A stretch of DNA of 64,000 nt from Acidimicrobiaceae bacterium (GTDB lineage: Bacteria; Actinomycetota; Acidimicrobiia; Actinomarinales; Actinomarinaceae), in NCBI GenBank assembly GCA_028344675.1, contig JAOMBT010000003.1, positions 288-64,287 of the forward strand. Reading direction: 5' to 3'. The notes beneath the pieces are model-generated. The model worked only from the letters and a program-made list of their open reading frames with translations. It ran no database searches and was not told the origin of the DNA. Of this stretch, positions 1 through 25,297 are shown piece by piece (position 1 is the first letter of the stretch; each line of letters starts with the position of its first letter). Position numbers and translations under genes: made by a program.

Positions 1-165
1 TTTTACTACAGTCATATCTATTTCATTATTTGACATTACTTCCACTAATTTATTGTCTATGTTTACAGATACATTTTCAACAGAATCGATAGTATTAATA
101 GCGGCTTCAATTGTTTCTTTACAATGTCCACAACTAATTTCAGGTACAGTAAATTTTGTTTTCAT
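1..165 (-). CDS. Heavy-metal-associated (HMA) domain protein, CopZ-like; C-terminus runs off the window
   Basis: Not in the ORF track because the window edge truncates it. Reverse-strand translation from the ATG at 165-163 gives MKTKFTVPEISCGHCKETIEAAINTIDSVENVSVNIDNKLVEVMSNNEIDMTVVK. This carries the CxxC metal-binding loop (SCGHC) typical of HMA/CopZ domains. Confidence 0.7.
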   Translation of the reverse strand, partial: MKTKFTVPEISCGHCKETIEAAINTIDSVENVSVNIDNKLVEVMSNNEIDMTVVK

Positions 166-198
166 GACTTTATAGTAATATTGGTAAATTTATAAAAT

Positions 199-220
199 AA
201 GCCCCTATAAATAGGGGCTT
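199..220 (-). terminator. Rho-independent terminator downstream of the 266..460 gene
   Basis: Perfect hairpin AAGCCCCTAT-AA-ATAGGGGCTT. On the minus strand it is followed by a T-rich tract (ATTTTAT). It lies between the stop of the 64-aa gene and the start of the HMA gene. Confidence 0.75.
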
Positions 221-265
221 ATAGGAAACCTCTTGGGGGAGATTTCATTAGGGGGGTATTAAAAC

Positions 266-460
266 TTATGCAGTTTCTTGTAAAATTCTTCCTCTTACTC
301 TTGGATATTTCACAGGAGCGTGGTTGAAGCAGTGATCTCTCTTATTATAAATACTTAATTTAGTGCTACAAGATTCGTCCTTGCACACTCTTCCTTGGTC
401 AAAACTTTTAGAAGGCCTAATGCCACCTTTAATTTGACTTGCTTTTAGTCCGTCTGTCAT
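266..460 (-). CDS. Small (64 aa) Cys-x4-Cys...Cys-x2-His putative zinc-binding protein, uncharacterised; paralog of 25041..25241
   Basis: ORF track. Motifs GRVCKDESC and HCFNHAPVKYPRVRG are shared nearly position-for-position with the 66-aa ORF at 25041..25241. An AAGGA Shine-Dalgarno lies just upstream of the ATG. Confidence 0.7.
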   Translation of the reverse strand: MTDGLKASQIKGGIRPSKSFDQGRVCKDESCSTKLSIYNKRDHCFNHAPVKYPRVRGRILQETA

Positions 461-478
461 TTTATTCCTTTATATACT

Positions 479-496
479 TTGTGAATATATTCACAA
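479..496. promoter_or_regulatory. Perfect 18-bp palindrome TTGTGAATATATTCACAA, a CRP/FNR(GlxR)-type TGTGA-N6-TCACA site
   Basis: Read directly from the sequence. It is centred about 27 bp upstream of the ATG at 460, inside the only intergenic space available for that gene's promoter. Confidence 0.55.
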
Positions 497-560: not shown

Positions 561-2459
561 TCAATTTATCAAGTTTTTTTGAAATAAAAATGCTTCATCA
601 TTCCACCCTCTGCCTAAGAAGTTTTTTACCATTAACTCAGCAGAGATAGTACCACCTGGCTTCAATATTTTATTTTTATACTCAACCCCAACAGAATTAG
701 ACAAAACACCTTCATTTTCAAATCTACTAAACATATCATCACCAATAATTTCAGCCCACAAGTAACCGTAGTATGCAGCATCATACCCACCTAGCAGATG
801 TCCAAATGCTGGAAGATGATTTGTGTCATTTGGATAATTAATATTTGTTACTTCCTGTGATATTCTTTCAATATCATTCAGAGAGTCATTAAAATCTTCT
901 CCATGCAAGTGTTGGTCAGCTAAACCAAAAGACACCTGTCGTAAGGCAAGAAGGCTAGCACCAATATTTTTTGAACTGTTCAGCTTTTCACAGATATCTT
1001 CTGACAAGGCTTTACCCGTTTCAATATGTCGTGAAATTTTCTTTAAGCATGCAACTTTCCAAACCCAGTGTTCCATAATTTGGCTAGGTGCCTCTACAAA
1101 ATCCCATTCACAGTTAGCACCAACAAATCTTGTATATTTAGATTTTCCAATCCCATTGTGTAAAACATGGCCGAATTCATGAAATAAAGTTTCTACTTCA
1201 TCAAATGTCATCAGTCCGTCTCCTGTATTAGGATTTGGAAAATTTGCAACCATGGAACAAACTGGCAACTCTTGTCTTACAGATCCCCCTGAAGATATAT
1301 CGAACACTGCTGCATGTGTATACTTACCTTCTCTTGGATATAGATCTAGGTAAAAATATGCTAATTGTTCACCACCCTTCTCCCATAAAGACCATAGTTC
1401 TACGTCTTCATGCCAGGCAGATTCACTTGACTCAGGTTTAATTTCTAAATCAAAAACTTCTTCACAAACTTTAAACATTTCAATTTTTACATCGTGTATG
1501 AAAAAATATTTTTTTAGTTCGCTGTTTTCAATATTGCTGACTTTACTTCGTTCAGAGGAAATAAAATACCTAATATCCCATGGTGCAATTTCTTCTATCG
1601 CAATATCATCAATAACGAGTTCCTTCTTTTCTAATTCAGCAGCTTTGTGTAGTTTAGGAATTAAGTCGTCATACATAGCTTTAACATTTTTTGGAGATTT
1701 AGCCATTCTATTCTGTAGTCTGTAATCTGCCCATGTCTTAAATCCAAATAAGCCAGCCTTCTCATTTCTTAATACAACAGCTTCTTTAAGAATCCGACTA
1801 TTTTCATTAACAGCCCTATTGTTAAATGCTTTCCATGTAGTTTCTCTAGTTTTTCTTACAGTACAGTTTTCTGTTACTGCATTTATATCTGGATAAGCCA
1901 TTGTTATAACAAATTTTTCACCACTTTTACTTAAGTTCGTGAGTTCATTTTTACTTAGCCCCCTCAGTTCATCTTTAGAAAATTGAAGCTCTGTCTTATC
2001 TTTAGCGATATTTTCTGAAAACAATATCCCTAGCTCTATTAGTTTTTTATCAATTTCTGATAATCTATTTTTCTTATCATGTTCAAGACCATGACCGGCA
2101 TCATTAAAATCTATTTCAAGATCTTTACGAAATTCAACTTCCTCAATGTCTGAAATATCAATTTTTATTTCATTAAATTTTTTATAAATATCTAAATCAT
2201 TAAAAATCTGTAATGCATAATTTTGTATTTCGGCATCTGCTATATTTCCAAATTCCCTAATTTTTTCATCTGGGTGAACATCTCCAAGAAAAGCTATCCT
2301 TCCAGAAAGGTCATATACAGCACTTTCTAATTCATTAAAATGACTCAAACTGACATTTTTTAAAGTCTTAATATTATCAACTAGTGAATTACATTCATTG
2401 ATACTTAGCTCTAAATCCTTTTTTAGGTTTTCTAGATTTACATTTGAATAGTTAAACAT
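561..2459 (-). CDS. M3 family zinc oligopeptidase (thimet oligopeptidase / Dcp-like)
   Basis: 632-aa ORF with the HExxH zinc motif in TLFHEFGHVLH. Length and C-terminal region are typical of peptidase family M3. Confidence 0.85.
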   Translation of the reverse strand: MFNYSNVNLENLKKDLELSINECNSLVDNIKTLKNVSLSHFNELESAVYDLSGRIAFLGDVHPDEKIREFGNIADAEIQNYALQIFNDLDIYKKFNEIKIDISDIEEVEFRKDLEIDFNDAGHGLEHDKKNRLSEIDKKLIELGILFSENIAKDKTELQFSKDELRGLSKNELTNLSKSGEKFVITMAYPDINAVTENCTVRKTRETTWKAFNNRAVNENSRILKEAVVLRNEKAGLFGFKTWADYRLQNRMAKSPKNVKAMYDDLIPKLHKAAELEKKELVIDDIAIEEIAPWDIRYFISSERSKVSNIENSELKKYFFIHDVKIEMFKVCEEVFDLEIKPESSESAWHEDVELWSLWEKGGEQLAYFYLDLYPREGKYTHAAVFDISSGGSVRQELPVCSMVANFPNPNTGDGLMTFDEVETLFHEFGHVLHNGIGKSKYTRFVGANCEWDFVEAPSQIMEHWVWKVACLKKISRHIETGKALSEDICEKLNSSKNIGASLLALRQVSFGLADQHLHGEDFNDSLNDIERISQEVTNINYPNDTNHLPAFGHLLGGYDAAYYGYLWAEIIGDDMFSRFENEGVLSNSVGVEYKNKILKPGGTISAELMVKNFLGRGWNDEAFLFQKNLIN

Positions 2460-21239: not shown

Positions 21240-21629
21240 TTATATATTCTTTCTAATATTTTTATTCGAATTTTTGACTATCTCATTCTTATAACTCTGA
21301 TGGATGTCTTTTTCTTGTTTGATATGTTGAATTTTTTCTTGGCTCACTTCTTCTTGTAAAGATAGTATCTTTTCTTGAAGTTCTTCTATCTTATCTCTCA
21401 TTTCATAAATAATTTTTATACCATCAAGGTTGATTCCTCTCTGGGATAACTCTTGTATTTGTATCAATTTATCTATATCATTTTGTGAATATCTTCGAGT
21501 ACCTCCGCCAGTTCTATAGGGTTTTATAAGCCCCTTTTCCTCATAAGATCTTATTGTTTGATGGTGGATTCCTGAAAGAGAGGATGCCACAGATATGAAG
21601 TATATTGAAGTTGAACTCTCTTTATTCAT
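21240..21629 (-). CDS. hspR: Heat-shock transcriptional repressor HspR (MerR family)
   Basis: 129 aa with a MerR-type HTH (YFISVASSLSGIHHQTIRSYEEKGLIKPYRTGGGTRRYSQNDI). It is the last gene of a dnaK-grpE-dnaJ-hspR arrangement and overlaps dnaJ by 8 nt. Confidence 0.85.
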   Translation of the reverse strand: MNKESSTSIYFISVASSLSGIHHQTIRSYEEKGLIKPYRTGGGTRRYSQNDIDKLIQIQELSQRGINLDGIKIIYEMRDKIEELQEKILSLQEEVSQEKIQHIKQEKDIHQSYKNEIVKNSNKNIRKNI

Positions 21630-22701
21630 ACAGATAATCTCTTGGTGTATCGCCTGATTCGAATTGATCTCTGTAACTTTCTAGGTGTTTTTTTGCAGAC
21701 CTTGAAAGATTTTGTGGTGGGTTTAAATACACCCTAATGTATAGGTCACCAGACCTTCTCCCCTGAGGTGAAATGCCTTCACCCTTCACTTTAAAGGTTT
21801 TACCACTAGGGGTACCAGCAGGAATTTTTAGAGAAATCTGTTTTTTAAGTGTAGGAATTCTAATTGTTGAGCCTAGTGCCGCTTCAGTAAACAACAATGG
21901 AACATCTAAAACTAAGTCACTACCATTTCTTTTGAAGTATTGGTGTGGCTCTACAGCTATCTGTACAAGAAGATCTCCATCTGGAGCCCCGCTATCACCA
22001 GGACCCCCGTAGCCTCGAAGTCTTATAACCGTTCCATTATCCACACCCGCTGGAATTTTTACTTTTACTGTTTCATTTTTTATGACCATACCTTGTGCTT
22101 TACAAGTTTTACATTGTTTATCTATAATACTCCCTTGACCTCTGCACGCTTGACATGGTTGTGCAAATGAAAAGAAGCCCTGGTTTGAAGCTGTTTGTCC
22201 GGAACCACTGCAAATATTACAAGTATGATAAGCAGTACCATTTTCCGATCCGTTGCCCCTACAATCGGCACAAGAAACTTCTTTTCGAAGTGGAACATTT
22301 GTTTCAAGACCAGATGCAGATTCTATGAATGAAATTGTTAAATTAGTTTGGTAGCTTTGACCCTTCCTTCTTCCACTTCCACCAAAACCACCAAAAATAT
22401 CACCTAAATTACCAAAAATATCTCCTAGGTCGTCAACATTAAAACCTCCTTGCCCACTAAATGCAGAGGCCCCCATGGCTCTAACCTGGTCATATTCTTG
22501 ACGTTTTTTTTGATCTGTTAAGACTGAGCTCGCTTCTGAGATATCTTTGAATCTTTTTTCAGCTTCAGAGTCTCCTGGATTTAAGTCTGGATGATTTTCT
22601 CTGGCTAACTTTTTATAACTTTTTTTAATATCATCGGTAGACGCATTTTGTGTAACGCCAAGAACTTTATAAAAATCTTTATCTAGCCAGTCTCTATTCA
22701 C
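21622..22701 (-). CDS. dnaJ: Molecular chaperone DnaJ
   Basis: J domain with HPD (ENHPDLNP), a G/F-rich linker and four CxxCxGxG zinc-finger repeats. Confidence 0.95.
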   Translation of the reverse strand: MNRDWLDKDFYKVLGVTQNASTDDIKKSYKKLARENHPDLNPGDSEAEKRFKDISEASSVLTDQKKRQEYDQVRAMGASAFSGQGGFNVDDLGDIFGNLGDIFGGFGGSGRRKGQSYQTNLTISFIESASGLETNVPLRKEVSCADCRGNGSENGTAYHTCNICSGSGQTASNQGFFSFAQPCQACRGQGSIIDKQCKTCKAQGMVIKNETVKVKIPAGVDNGTVIRLRGYGGPGDSGAPDGDLLVQIAVEPHQYFKRNGSDLVLDVPLLFTEAALGSTIRIPTLKKQISLKIPAGTPSGKTFKVKGEGISPQGRRSGDLYIRVYLNPPQNLSRSAKKHLESYRDQFESGDTPRDYLYE

Positions 22702-23209
22702 TATGGACTTTTACCATGGCTGGCCTGAGTAATCTACCGTCTATTTCATAACCTTTTCTATGGACTTCTCCAACCAGTTCTTCAGCACCCTCTCCAGATT
22801 TTTCTACAGCTTCATGAAAAGAGGGATTAAAAGGCTCTCCAACACCAGGAACCTCTTTTACATTAAAAGTATCTAAAAATGCTTGAGCCATTTTATATAG
22901 GGCATCAATCTCATTGGGAGAGTCTTCTCGATTAACAGCAATCTCAAAGTTATCTATCAAAGGAAGTAAAGAGGAGATAATCATAGAAAGAGACGTAACC
23001 AGACTCATACTTTTTTCTTTTTCAGCTCTTTTTTTAAAATTATCAAAATCAGCTGCAAGTCTCAAATAGTCATCTTTCATTTTTTCATACTGCTCTAAAG
23101 AAACACTATTTTCCTCAGGTGTCTCCTCAGGTGTCTCCTCAGGTGTCTCCTCAGGTGTCTCCTCAGGCTTATCTAAATCTTTGGAATGATTAGTGTCATC
23201 CTTACTCAT
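22694..23209 (-). CDS. grpE: Nucleotide exchange factor GrpE
   Basis: 171 aa with a GrpE C-terminal domain ([11 protein letters not shown] ... [16 protein letters not shown]). It sits between dnaK and dnaJ. Confidence 0.9.
23111..23167. repeat. 12-bp tandem repeat (TCCTCAGGTGTC x4 plus a partial copy) encoding (PEET)n in the GrpE N-terminus
   Basis: Read directly from the sequence. The protein shows [19 protein letters not shown]. Confidence 0.9.
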
Positions 23210-25016
23210 CTTCTACAACTTCGCCTTCGACTACATCATCATTTTCTACATCTTCAGACGAATTCTCTTGAGCCTCTTGTTGGGCTTCTGCATAAAGCTT
23301 TTCAGCAAATGACTGACTAGCCTTAGTTAATTCCTCTATAGAATTTTTAATCTCTTCTAAAGAAGCATCTTCATTCTCAAGAACTTTTGATACAGCTTCT
23401 TTACCCTCAGTTATAGAAGCAATTTCTTCTTCAGTTGCTTTATCTTTATTCTCATCAAGCATTTTTTCTGTAGAAGTAATCATTCCTTCAGCTAAGTTTC
23501 TTGTTTCTATGAGCTCTTTTTTTTGAGCATCTTCATTAGCGTGTGTCTCAGCATCTTTAATCATCCTCTCGATTTCATCATCTTCAAGAGCTGTTCCTCC
23601 CGTAATAGTAATATTTTGTTCTTTACCAGTACCAAGATCTTTTGCATTAACATTTACTATTCCATTTGCATCGATGTCAAAAGTTACCTCAATTTGGGGC
23701 GTCCCTTGTTTTGCTGTAGGAATTTCTGTAAGTTTAAATTTACCTAAAGATTTATTACCTGAAGCCATTTCTCGTTCACCCTGAAGTACATGAATTTCAA
23801 CCTCAGTTTGTCCATCTTCAGCTGTGGTAAATGTCTCGGATCTCTTGGTGGGGATGGTAGTATTCCTTTCAATCATTTTTGCAACAATCCCTCCCTTGGT
23901 TTCAACTCCTAAAGTTAAAGGAGTAACATCAAGAAGTAACACATCTTTTACATCACCTTTAAGAACGCCAGCCTGTATAGCTGCCCCAGAGGCTACCACT
24001 TCATCTGGATTAACACCTTTGTGCGGATTTTTACCAGTCATGCTTTTTACTAAAGCTTGGATTGATGGAATTCTTGTTGACCCACCGACTAGAATAATAT
24101 GATCAATATCAGAATATGATAGGCCAGCATCTTCAATAGCTTTTTCAACAGGTCTTTTTGTTCGTTCTACTAAGTCAGAAGTAATTTTTTCGAATTCACT
24201 TCTAGATAATTTCTCCAGTAAATGTTGCGGCCCGGCATCATTTGCAGTAATAAATGGTAAGTTTACTTCTGTTTCACTAGTTGAAGAAAGTTCAATTTTT
24301 GCTTTTTCTGCACCTTCTTTAATTCTTTGCATGGCCATATTATCAGTAGAGATATCGATACCAGTTGATGATTTAAATTTTTCAACTAGCCAATCCATTA
24401 CTTTTTGATCCCAATCATCTCCACCTAATTTTGAATCACCAGCTGTAGATTTAACTTCAAAAACACCTTCAGATATTTCTAGTACGGAAACATCAAATGT
24501 GCCCCCACCTAGATCATAAACTAATATTTTTTGATCTTCGCTATTTTCTAAACCATAAGCTAATGATGCTGCAGTCGGCTCATTAATAATTCTTAATACA
24601 TTAAGACCAGCAATCTTTCCCGCTTCTTTTGTTGCCTGACGTTCAGCATCATTAAAATATGCTGGAACTGTAATTACAGCTTCAGTTACATCTTCACCAA
24701 GATATGATTCGGCATCTCTTTTTAATTTTTGCAAAATTCTTGCTGATATTTCTTGAGGTGTGTATTCATTACCTTCAAATTTTTGTTTCCAAGACGTTCC
24801 TATCTCTCTTTTAATTGACCTTATTGTGTTATCAGGGTTTGTTATTGCTTGTCTTTTAGCAAGCTCTCCCACAAGAACTTCCTCACCCTTAAAGGCAACA
24901 ATAGAAGGAGTAGTTCTATTTCCTTCTGCATTTGCCACCACTGTCGGCTCGCCACCTTCTAATACTGCTACAACACTGTTTGTAGTTCCTAAGTCGATTC
25001 CAACGGCTTTTCCCAT
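23202..25016 (-). CDS. dnaK: Molecular chaperone DnaK (Hsp70)
   Basis: 604 aa with canonical Hsp70 motifs ([28 protein letters not shown]). Confidence 0.98.
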
Positions 25017-25040
25017 AATCTTTAATCCTTTCTTAAGTGT

Positions 25041-25241
25041 TTAATTAAGTTCTTGCTCTCTAGGTAGATGACCACGTACTCTTGGGTAGGAGACAGGCGC
25101 ATGAAGAAAGCAAAACTTCTTCTTGTTATACATACTTATAAAAGTTTCACAAGATTCAAATTCACAGACACGTCCAGAAGTATATTTTTTAGATCTTCTA
25201 ATGCCAGGCTTTACTTGTGATGCTGTTAGCGTACCACTCAT
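25041..25241 (-). CDS. Small (66 aa) Cys-x4-Cys...Cys-x2-His putative zinc-binding protein; first gene of the dnaK operon; paralog of 266..460
   Basis: ORF track. Motifs GRVCEFESC and FCFLHAPVSYPRVRG. AGGAG Shine-Dalgarno upstream. Only 24 nt separate its stop from the dnaK ATG. Confidence 0.7.
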   Translation of the reverse strand: MSGTLTASQVKPGIRRSKKYTSGRVCEFESCETFISMYNKKKFCFLHAPVSYPRVRGHLPREQELN

Positions 25242-25275
25242 TTATTCTCCTAATCTATATAATTCATTATATATA

Positions 25276-25297
25276 ATCTAAGTAAAATTACTTAGAT
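25276..25297. promoter_or_regulatory. 22-bp palindrome ATCTAAGTAA-AA-TTACTTAGAT, candidate HspR operator (HAIR-like) abutting a TATAAT-like -10 box
   Basis: 10-bp perfect arms read directly. On the minus strand it is immediately followed by TATATATAAT, about 35 nt upstream of the ATG at 25241. The half-site CTAAGT/ACTTAG resembles the actinobacterial HAIR CTTGAGT-N7-ACTCAAG, but the spacing differs by 1. Confidence 0.5.

What the first reader, a model, noticed from the sequence alone, without database searches (positions are those of the whole stretch)
25041..25241. Two paralogous small Cys/His proteins, one of them the leader gene of the dnaK-grpE-dnaJ-hspR operon
ORFs 25041..25241 (66 aa) and 266..460 (64 aa) share the pattern ASQ[IV]K-x-GIR-x-SK ... 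GRVC-x4-C-x-T-x2-S-x-YNK-x3-CF-x-HAPV-x-YPRVRG. This gives a C-x4-C-x16-C-x2-H putative zinc knuckle with a basic tail. I cannot assign them to a named family. One copy sits 24 nt upstream of dnaK behind a HAIR-like operator, so it would be co-induced with the chaperones. The other stands alone behind a CRP-type palindrome and ends in its own terminator. A heat-shock-controlled mini zinc protein is a candidate regulator or chaperone cofactor.
Basis: partly seen in the sequence, partly recalled or inferred. Interest (0 to 1): 0.6.

Follow-up and report, generated by a model that had tools for sequence, protein, structure and literature searches.

The report
Stress-operon zinc-knuckle microprotein pair
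Two real, strongly conserved 64-66-residue zinc-binding mini-proteins of an unnamed family occur in the tiny marine bacterium Candidatus Actinomarina, one inserted between the heat-shock operator and dnaK; relatives wire the same gene into the SigH stress regulon, but its biochemical job is still unknown.

Summary
Both ORFs lie on the minus strand and are 58% identical. The motif is C-x4-C-x12-C-x2-H, not x16.

Both are real genes, with dN/dS of 0.05 and 0.03 across Actinomarina species. They belong to an unnamed family with no Pfam, NCBIfam or PDB match. The family occurs in 63 of 151 Acidimicrobiia genomes, in other deep Actinomycetota and in phage contigs.

The dnaK-leader position is specific to Actinomarina. 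There the gene sits between an HspR-type operator-promoter and dnaK.

In other families the gene takes one of two positions:
- the third cistron of sigH-rshA;
- an ancestral M3-peptidase / gene / copZ-copA position, which the second copy in this window keeps.

Many relatives carry an ECF (SigH-type) promoter directly upstream. Actinomarina lacks a SigH orthologue, so control by HspR looks like a rewiring that keeps the gene stress-inducible.

The "CRP" palindrome is perfectly conserved and unique in the genome, but I found no CRP-type regulator in the genus.

The molecular function is not resolved. My best guess is a zinc knuckle with basic tails that binds nucleic acid or RNA polymerase. A chaperone-cofactor role is disfavoured.

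This scan already reported the same family on other Actinomarina genomes.

The parts
25041..25241 (-). CCCH zinc-knuckle microprotein, dnaK-linked paralogue (66 aa; ligands C26, C31, C44, H47)
   Evidence: Orthologues found in 35 Actinomarina loci, dN/dS 0.049. Family alignment invariants R24, C31, Y38, C44, H47.
25276..25297 (.). HAIR-like palindrome ATCTAAGT-N6-ACTTAGAT, probable HspR operator
   Evidence: The arms are conserved and the spacer varies in 35 species. It is the only such site in each of five genomes. It occupies the position that canonical-type HAIR (CTTGATA-N7-ACTCAAG) holds before dnaK in other Acidimicrobiia.
25266..25275 (-). TATATATAAT, probable -10 region directly after the palindrome; AGGAG ribosome-binding site at 25247-25251
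   Evidence: Read. The arrangement is conserved. Its role as a promoter is inferred.
25017..25040 (-). 24-nt spacer to dnaK holding only the dnaK ribosome-binding site (AAAGGA)
   Evidence: No terminator-like site was found. The spacer is 15-33 nt in 33 of the 35 orthologous loci; the script found no dnaK start in the other two.
21240..25016 (-). dnaK (23202-25016), grpE (22694-23209), dnaJ (21622-22701), hspR (MerR family, 21240-21629)
266..460 (-). CCCH zinc-knuckle microprotein, paralogue in the ancestral position (64 aa)
   Evidence: It is almost invariant in 13 species, dN/dS 0.028. The M3-peptidase / gene / copZ-copA synteny is shared with other families.
479..496 (.). Perfect 18-bp palindrome TTGTGAATATATTCACAA, starting at the last base of a conserved TTGCTA-16-TAAGCT promoter (518-523 and 496-501)
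   Evidence: It is 100% conserved in 13 species while the flanks vary. The exact 16-mer occurs once in each of five genomes of the genus. The binding factor is unknown.
197..222 (-). Intrinsic terminator (11-bp GC-rich stem followed by a U tract); a second hairpin lies at 225-246
   Evidence: It is present in only about half of the species compared.
1..165 (-). copZ-like heavy-metal chaperone gene, cut by the window edge; copA follows in relatives
561..2459 (-). M3 family oligopeptidase, conserved upstream neighbour of the ancestral-position copy

Best explanation
SHOWN
- Both ORFs are genuine genes under strong purifying selection.
- They belong to an undescribed family of about 65-residue proteins built around one invariant Cys3His site (C-x4-C-x12-C-x2-H).
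- The site is flanked by conserved basic N- and C-terminal tails (R15, R24, PRxRG).
- The organism is Candidatus Actinomarina (Acidimicrobiia).
- Copy 266-460 keeps the family's ancestral position: M3 peptidase / gene / copZ-copA.
- Copy 25041-25241 sits between the HspR-type operator-promoter and dnaK. That position is empty in other Acidimicrobiia, so here the gene is the first cistron of the dnaK-grpE-dnaJ-hspR operon.
- In at least six other Acidimicrobiia families the gene is the third cistron of a sigH-rshA operon.
- ECF (SigH-type) GGAA-N18-20-GTT motifs are sharply enriched just upstream of the gene in relatives.
- Actinomarina has no SigH orthologue.

INFERRED
- The conserved property is induction by proteotoxic stress (heat, thiol oxidation, perhaps copper).
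- In the streamlined Actinomarina genome, induction was preserved by placing a duplicate under HspR.

GUESSED MECHANISM (about 0.3)
- The zinc knuckle with its basic tails binds nucleic acid, or RNA polymerase or sigma, and tunes gene expression during stress.
- This would be comparable in role, not in sequence, to the small actinobacterial factors WhiB and RbpA.
- Phages of these hosts borrow it.
For: Real gene and family:
- Paralogy.
- Both genes conserved in 23 of 24 sampled genomes of the genus.
- dN/dS 0.049 and 0.028.
- 258 clusters at 50% identity.
- Invariant ligands.

Operon:
- 24-nt gap and no terminator.
- Palindrome conserved and unique in the genome.
- Other Acidimicrobiia carry HAIR plus promoter directly before dnaK.
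- The dnaK link is seen only in this genus.

Stress wiring elsewhere:
- sigH (TIGR02947, 262.9 bits against a cut-off of 251.55), an RsrA-like anti-sigma, then this gene.
- The ECF motif occurs in 12 of 40 upstream windows against 1.4% of random windows.
- Motif matches peak at -200..0: 21 in that bin, against 0-6 in bins away from the gene.
- Four more motifs lie at about -36 to -44.

No SigH orthologue in Actinomarina.

Phage copies lie among endolysin, exonuclease, replication-initiator, terminase and portal genes.

The AlphaFold core has a pLDDT of about 82, two short strands and tails that are not helical.
Against:
- There is no significant structural or sequence match that would indicate a function.
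- There are no informative domain fusions.
- GGAAC...GTT is a general ECF signature, not a SigH-specific one. No such motif precedes sigH itself in 16 loci.
- Relatedness among the loci inflates the enrichment statistic.
- Contexts of the third type (lnt, two-component systems, GGDEF) show no stress link.
- The tree cannot say whether the dnaK copy arose from the ancestral-position copy.
- Zinc binding and nucleic-acid binding are untested.
Confidence: 0.55

Rival explanations
1. Metal or redox protein. The Cys3His site would act as a zinc-thiolate switch, or as a zinc or copper buffer or donor. It would serve neighbouring metalloproteins such as RshA, DnaJ, M3 and Zincin peptidases, FtsH and CopZ/CopA during oxidative or copper stress.
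For: The gene recurrently lies next to zinc or copper proteins: the rshA ZAS anti-sigma, Zincin_2 and ftsH; the M3 peptidase and copZ-copA; and dnaJ in the same operon. SigH/SigR regulons respond to thiol oxidation (established knowledge).
Against: A single tetrahedral Cys3His site with invariant ligands looks structural. The equally invariant Arg, Tyr and Asn residues and the basic tails are not explained by metal handling. In family f15 the gene is inverted relative to copZ and the peptidase, so the synteny is not operonic.
Confidence: 0.15
2. Ribosome- or RNA-associated stress factor. It would be a small basic zinc protein that docks on rRNA or mRNA during stress, comparable to zinc-ribbon ribosomal proteins or hibernation factors.
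For: The size, the basic and disordered tails and the single zinc knuckle fit. The gene is regulated with the stress response.
Against: It shows no similarity to any ribosomal-protein family. It is never found in ribosomal gene clusters in the contexts I read. Its patchy, all-or-none distribution by family is unusual for a ribosome component.
Confidence: 0.12
3. Dedicated partner of the DnaK system or of HspR: a co-chaperone, or a modulator of HspR repression.
For: It is the first cistron of the dnaK operon in every Actinomarina species examined.
Against: Outside this genus the family gene is not adjacent to dnaK: where both lie on one contig they are 19 kb or more apart, and elsewhere they are on different contigs. 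Those genomes still have dnaK and HAIR. The paralogue with the better-conserved sequence is the copy that is not linked to dnaK.
Confidence: 0.08
4. Sequence-specific autoregulator. The proteins themselves would bind the unique palindromes in front of their genes. At least copy 266-460 would bind TTGTGAATATATTCACAA, and so also control copZ-copA where no terminator intervenes.
For: The palindrome is 100% conserved, occurs once per genome and overlaps the predicted transcription start. I found no CRP-type regulator in the genus. A GTGA-N6-TCAC site also precedes the orthologue in another family (L116 and L118). The MerR regulator found between this gene and copZ in family f2 is missing in Actinomarina.
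Against: A 64-residue single knuckle has no evident dimerisation surface. The palindrome could equally be a 5' RNA hairpin or the site of an unidentified factor. sigH-linked family members show no such palindrome. The assemblies searched are 71-94% complete.
Confidence: 0.1

Closest known systems
HspR/HAIR-controlled dnaK-grpE-dnaJ-hspR operon of Streptomyces and Mycobacterium
   Same: The gene order is the same and a MerR-type hspR is the last gene. An inverted repeat abuts the -10 region. Other Acidimicrobiia carry CTTGATA-N7-ACTCAAG at the same position.
   Different: An extra gene lies between the operator-promoter and dnaK. The operator is AT-shifted (CTAAGT-N6-ACTTAG) with different spacing.
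SigH-RshA / SigR-RsrA thiol and heat stress module of Actinomycetota, with its small zinc proteins (RsrA, and RbpA in Streptomyces)
   Same: In many relatives the gene is co-transcribed with sigH-rshA or preceded by a GGAA...GTT promoter. It is small and depends on Cys/His metal ligands.
   Different: It shows no sequence relationship to RsrA or RbpA. RbpA was not found in any of 151 Acidimicrobiia genomes. Actinomarina lacks a SigH orthologue.
First zinc site of the plant SBP (SQUAMOSA promoter-binding) domain, and the related EsV-1-7 and WRKY19 C-x4-C-x(n)-C-x2-H knuckles
   Same: The ligand order is Cys-Cys-Cys-His. The local pattern is R-x-C-x4-C-x3-L...Y-x-[RK]-x3-C-x2-H (alignment; weak Pfam hits).
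   Different: All matches fall below significance (E 0.08; Pfam E 0.006 or worse, under the cut-offs). The spacing is 12 rather than 16. There is no second zinc site. Foldseek gives no support.
WhiB-like (Wbl) proteins: small metal-cluster transcription factors of Actinomycetota, also carried by actinophages
   Same: Similar size class, a Cys-based metal site followed by a basic tail, links to stress regulons, and copies in phages. This is an analogy of role only.
   Different: The Whib Pfam family gives no match to these proteins. The ligand set is CCCH rather than four Cys for an Fe-S cluster. Genuine WhiB genes coexist in the same genomes.

Membership tests
HspR/HAIR regulon | hspR (MerR family) encoded in the same operon as dnaK-grpE-dnaJ | tested here: met
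   MerR_1 domain, E 1.3e-16, in the 129-aa last gene (21240-21629).
HspR/HAIR regulon | Inverted repeat CTTGAGT-N7-ACTCAAG overlapping the promoter | tested here: inconclusive
   The position and architecture match, and the repeat is conserved in 35 species. The sequence is CTAAGT-N6-ACTTAG, so it is not canonical.
HspR/HAIR regulon | HspR binding and heat induction | not testable with these tools
No experimental data exist for this uncultured genus.
SigH/SigR regulon (family members in relatives) | Linkage to a SigH orthologue with a ZAS anti-sigma | tested here: met
   TIGR02947 scores 262.9 bits against a cut-off of 251.55. The RsrA model scores 58.2 against 62.5. The order sigH-rshA-gene occurs in 10 of the 40 sampled loci, with sigH-rshA inverted beside the gene in an 11th; together they come from six families. 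The same order occurs in all three metagenome proteins looked up.
SigH/SigR regulon (this window) | A SigH orthologue in the genome and a GGAA-N18-20-GTT promoter upstream | tested here: not met
   The best ECF sigma in Actinomarina is 27-30% identical (31% over a 62-residue fragment in G000) and is paired with a membrane anti-sigma. Neither upstream region of the window carries the motif.
SBP-domain zinc finger | Two zinc sites (C-x4-C-x16-C-x2-H plus C-x2-C-x3-H-x11-C) and a significant profile match | tested here: not met
   Only one site is present, with x12 spacing. The PDB profile match has E 0.08.
RbpA | Match to PF13397, with the core domain plus the sigma-interaction helices | tested here: not met
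   No Pfam match. The model has no helices apart from three residues at the C-terminus.
WhiB-like | Match to PF02467 and four Cys ligands for an Fe-S cluster | tested here: not met
   No match. The ligand set is CCCH.
CRP/FNR-regulated promoter (copy 266-460) | TGTGA-N6-TCACA site | tested here: met
CRP/FNR-regulated promoter (copy 266-460) | A CRP/FNR-family regulator in the genome | tested here: not met
   PF00027 matched in 0 of 5 genomes. PF13545 gave only sub-threshold hits, and the one ORF I read (in G018) is a DtxR-like 236-aa protein. The genomes are 71-94% complete.
Structural zinc knuckle or ribbon (generic) | Four invariant Cys/His ligands in a compact core | tested here: met
   C26, C31, C44 and H47 are invariant in 77 sequences. 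The core pLDDT is about 82. Metal binding itself is untested.

The most novel reading that the evidence does not exclude
The family is a previously unrecognised stress-induced transcription factor of deep-branching Actinomycetota. It would be a zinc knuckle that binds RNA polymerase or sigma, or promoter DNA (perhaps its own unique palindrome). It would fill, in the RbpA-less Acidimicrobiia, a role like that of RbpA or WhiB, and their phages would use it to reprogramme the host.
Probability: 0.25. Interest if true: 0.75.

Novelty: new variant of a known kind. Interest (0 to 1): 0.58.

Why it matters
Candidatus Actinomarina is among the smallest and most abundant free-living marine bacteria and keeps very few regulators. 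It retains two copies of this microprotein, with dN/dS of 0.03-0.05. It placed one copy at the head of its only chaperone operon after losing SigH. Both facts argue for an important stress function.

The family is unannotated: it is labelled "hypothetical protein" or not called at all. It is spread over many uncultured Actinomycetota and occurs in their phages. Defining its target would add a new small component to actinobacterial stress regulation. It would also provide a case of regulon rewiring during genome streamlining.

Tried and rejected
- Pfam, NCBIfam and PADLOC-independent searches: no family for either protein. Across the family only weak sub-threshold hits appeared: CxC6, EsV-1-7 and WRKY19.
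- PDB by sequence and by profile: nothing significant; SBP at E 0.08.
- Foldseek against PDB and BFVD: nothing significant.
- Domain fusions: the long "ORFs" that contain the domain are spurious high-GC open frames with the small protein at their end. The C-terminal extensions of some members match no family.
- Complementary distribution with RbpA: rejected, because RbpA is missing from all 151 Acidimicrobiia genomes, with or without this gene.
- CsoR as the copper regulator: not found in Actinomarina.
- CRP as the binder of the 18-bp palindrome: no regulator found.
- SigH autoregulatory promoter before sigH, intended as a positive control: 0 of 16 loci. A conserved motif does lie before rshA, but inside coding sequence.
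- Tree to date the duplication: unresolved, with only 63 columns.
- GenBank phage records: no tblastn match, although IMG/VR contigs do match.
- Rfam on the 3' and 5' regions of copy 266-460: only chance-level hits.
- Literature: no paper on this family.

Full report
**Observation**

The window is AT-rich. Close relatives found with the protein are all titled Candidatus Actinomarina, Actinomarinales or OCS155. The assembly has 0.71 Mb and is 71% complete.

On the minus strand, 25041-25241 encodes a 66-aa protein and 266-460 a 64-aa protein. They are 58% identical, E 1e-26.

The first ORF ends 24 nt before dnaK (23202-25016). grpE, dnaJ and a MerR-family hspR follow.

**Are they genes?**

Both copies are present in 23 of 24 sampled genomes of the genus, about 22-24 kb apart.
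- Across 33 distinct orthologous sequences of the dnaK-linked copy, mean dN is 0.053 and mean dS 1.09, a ratio of 0.049.
- For 13 orthologues of the other copy the ratio is 0.028.

A full HMMER scan of 1.8 billion cluster representatives found 258 clusters with E < 1e-3, nearly all 60-80 aa long.

In a 63-sequence alignment R24, C31, Y38, C44 and H47 are invariant. C26, S36, N39, R56 and G57 are nearly so. In a second, 77-sequence alignment R15, R24, C26, C31, S36, Y38, N39, C44, H47, P53, R56 and G57 are invariant.

**Known families**

Neither Pfam nor NCBIfam matches. Across the family only sub-threshold hits appear, to eukaryotic and viral C-x4-C...C-x2-H knuckles: CxC6, EsV-1-7 and WRKY19.

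A family profile against PDB gives one weak hit, the first zinc site of a plant SBP domain (E 0.08). The local pattern is similar, R-x-C-x4-C...Y-x-[RK]...C-x2-H.

AlphaFold with 77 sequences gives a mean pLDDT of 72, about 82 in the core, two short strands and unstructured tails. Foldseek finds nothing significant in PDB or BFVD.

All names given by database sources are "hypothetical protein".

**Distribution**

Among 151 Acidimicrobiia genomes, 63 carry the family. Presence is all-or-none by family: for example 12/12, 18/18, 8/8, 7/7 and 6/6, against 0/9, 0/19 and 0/9. Genomes carry 1-3 copies each.

In a phylum-wide sample, 77 of 301 genomes carry it. Several other families are at or near full occupancy, and the largest families have none.

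IMG/VR contigs also encode members. Two of them are clearly phage:
- one has an endolysin, an exonuclease, an excisionase-like protein, a replication initiator and an HNH nuclease around the gene;
- the other has terminase and portal genes.

PHROG 10853, of unknown function, matches 60 of 77 family members weakly.

**Genomic context**

I compared the coordinates of family hits with those of dnaK in the same 151 genomes. Adjacency occurs only in Actinomarina. Elsewhere, where both lie on one contig, the genes are 19 kb or more apart; in other genomes they are on different contigs.

I fetched 40 loci from other families, compared them by tblastn and added three annotated metagenome contexts. Three arrangements emerged.

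- Type B, six families: sigH, rshA, this gene, a small membrane protein, Zincin_2, tilS, hpt, ftsH.
  - The sigma factor passes the SigH_actino model (262.9 bits against a cut-off of 251.55).
  - The anti-sigma is RsrA-like (58.2 bits against 62.5).
  - In families without this gene, rshA is followed directly by the small membrane protein.
- Type A: M3 peptidase, this gene, copZ-copA. This is the arrangement of copy 266-460.
  - In a single-contig Actinomarina genome the order is M3 peptidase, gene, copZ, copA.
  - In family f2 a MerR (CueR-like) regulator lies between the gene and copZ. That regulator is missing in Actinomarina.
  - In family f15 the gene is inverted relative to both neighbours, so the synteny is not an operon.
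- Type C: varied neighbours, such as lnt, an aminotransferase, GGDEF proteins and two-component systems.

**Regulatory signals in relatives**

The motif GGAA-N18-20-GTT occurs in the -130..-15 window of 12 of the 40 genes, against 1.4% of random windows from the same loci. Four more lie at about -36 to -44, which would fit leaderless transcripts.

On the coding strand, motif matches peak at -200..0, with 21 in that bin. The -400..-200 bin holds 11, and bins further from the gene hold 0-6.

In two f12 loci the motif is intergenic. The GGAAC and CGTT elements are conserved and the spacer differs, as expected of a promoter.

Caveats:
- This is the general ECF signature.
- The loci are related, which inflates the statistic.
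- No such motif precedes sigH itself in 16 loci.
- A conserved motif lies before rshA, but inside coding sequence.

**Regulatory signals in Actinomarina**

The genus has only one ECF sigma. It is about 30% identical to SigH and is paired with a membrane anti-sigma. Zincin_2 and CsoR were not found.

Before the dnaK-linked copy, the palindrome ATCTAAGT-N6-ACTTAGAT abuts TATATATAAT. The arms are conserved and the spacer varies in 35 species. dnaK starts 15-33 nt after the stop codon in 33 of these 35 loci; the script found no dnaK start in the other two.

With the 8-nt spacing used at the operon, the palindrome occurs only there in each of five genomes; two genomes hold one further match with a 9-nt spacing and different spacer sequence.

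Other Acidimicrobiia have CTTGATA-N7-ACTCAAG overlapping the promoter directly in front of dnaK. So the Actinomarina site is the local version of HAIR, and the small gene has been inserted between that site and dnaK.

Before copy 266-460, the palindrome TTGTGAATATATTCACAA is identical in 13 species although the flanks diverge. It starts at the last base of a conserved promoter, TTGC(A/T)N-16/17-TA(A/C)(G/C)CT. The exact 16-mer occurs once in each of five genomes of the genus.

Two f15 orthologues also have GTGA-N6-TCAC upstream.

I found no cNMP-binding protein in five genomes. The sub-threshold Crp-HTH hit that I read belongs to a DtxR-like protein. The factor that binds this site is therefore unknown.

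The terminator at 197-222 is real but is present in only about half of the species. In the rest, copZ begins 50-90 nt downstream.

**Interpretation**

The firm conclusions are these:
- The two ORFs belong to an undescribed zinc-knuckle microprotein family.
- The family is repeatedly placed under stress control: in the SigH operon, behind ECF promoters, or under HspR.
- The duplication and the dnaK-leader insertion are specific to Actinomarina.
- That lineage lacks SigH, which is consistent with a rewiring that preserves stress induction.

The molecular function is not established.
- I favour binding to nucleic acid or to RNA polymerase, at about 0.3. The reasons are the invariant basic and aromatic residues, the disordered basic tails, the phage copies near early or regulatory genes, and the orphan palindrome.
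- The rivals are a metal or redox role, a ribosome or RNA association, a DnaK/HspR partner and a pure autoregulator.
- The chaperone-partner idea is weakened because the dnaK link is confined to one genus.
- RbpA is absent from all 151 Acidimicrobiia genomes, so its distribution neither supports nor excludes an RbpA-like role.
- WhiB genes coexist with this family.

**Earlier notes of this scan**

Earlier notes describe the same family and the same operator on other Actinomarina genomes, with similar conclusions. I re-derived the main points independently.
- the genus-restricted dnaK link;
- the SigH_actino assignment;
- the positional enrichment of the ECF motif;
- the absence of a SigH orthologue and of CRP;
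- the loss of the MerR regulator at copZ;
- the comparison with HAIR in relatives.

**Limits**

The protein tree is unresolved. The genomes behind the genome-search hits are unnamed. The Actinomarina assemblies are 63-94% complete, so "not found" is not proof of absence.

Noticed in passing
window 479-496, and five Actinomarina genomes: A perfect TGTGA-N6-TCACA palindrome is conserved to the letter across the genus. No cNMP-binding or genuine Crp-type regulator was found in five genomes, and the sub-threshold Crp-HTH hit that was read belongs to a DtxR-like protein. It is an orphan operator, or possibly a 5' RNA hairpin.
   Followed up: partly
window 225-246 and 197-222; loci L059-L071: About half of the species have an inserted 3' element after the 64-aa gene: a C-rich run, the hairpin GAAATCTC...GAGGTTTC, and then the terminator. 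The other species lack it and run directly into copZ. It has no Rfam match.
   Followed up: partly
L094 4356-4790 compared with L146 7748-7833: In another Acidimicrobiia family a MerR (CueR-like) regulator lies between the small gene and copZ-copA. Actinomarina has lost it, and CsoR was not found either. Control of its copper-export genes is therefore unexplained.
   Followed up: partly
L134 1230-2381 (Actinomarina genome G009): The only ECF sigma factor of the genus lies between rpmG and secE-nusG. A 124-aa membrane-anchored anti-sigma follows it. It is about 30% identical to SigH of other Acidimicrobiia.
   Followed up: no
151 Acidimicrobiia genomes: RbpA (PF13397) gave no match in any of 151 Acidimicrobiia genomes, although the control in Corynebacterium glutamicum matched.
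   Followed up: no
L089 5282-5584; L148-L151 gaps: A small tail-anchored membrane protein (W..W...GYLK.V..PRYP motif) always follows rshA, or the zinc-knuckle gene, and precedes Zincin_2-tilS-hpt-ftsH. It has no family assignment.
   Followed up: no
L103, L106, L154, L155 (family f10); L152, L153, L156: Divergent subfamilies of the microprotein keep the CCCH core but replace the PRxRG tail, for example CWQHFQPVPRPARIP and CSVHRGWDRQV. Up to six copies occur per genome in some phylum-level families.
   Followed up: no
L101, L104, L111, L113, L123, L126, L130, L132 (about -306 to -446 from the gene): A conserved GGAAGAAA-N-GCGCTGCAG-N-GCGTT motif lies at the 3' end of sigH, just before rshA. It may be a SigH-dependent rshA promoter or merely conserved coding sequence.
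   Followed up: no
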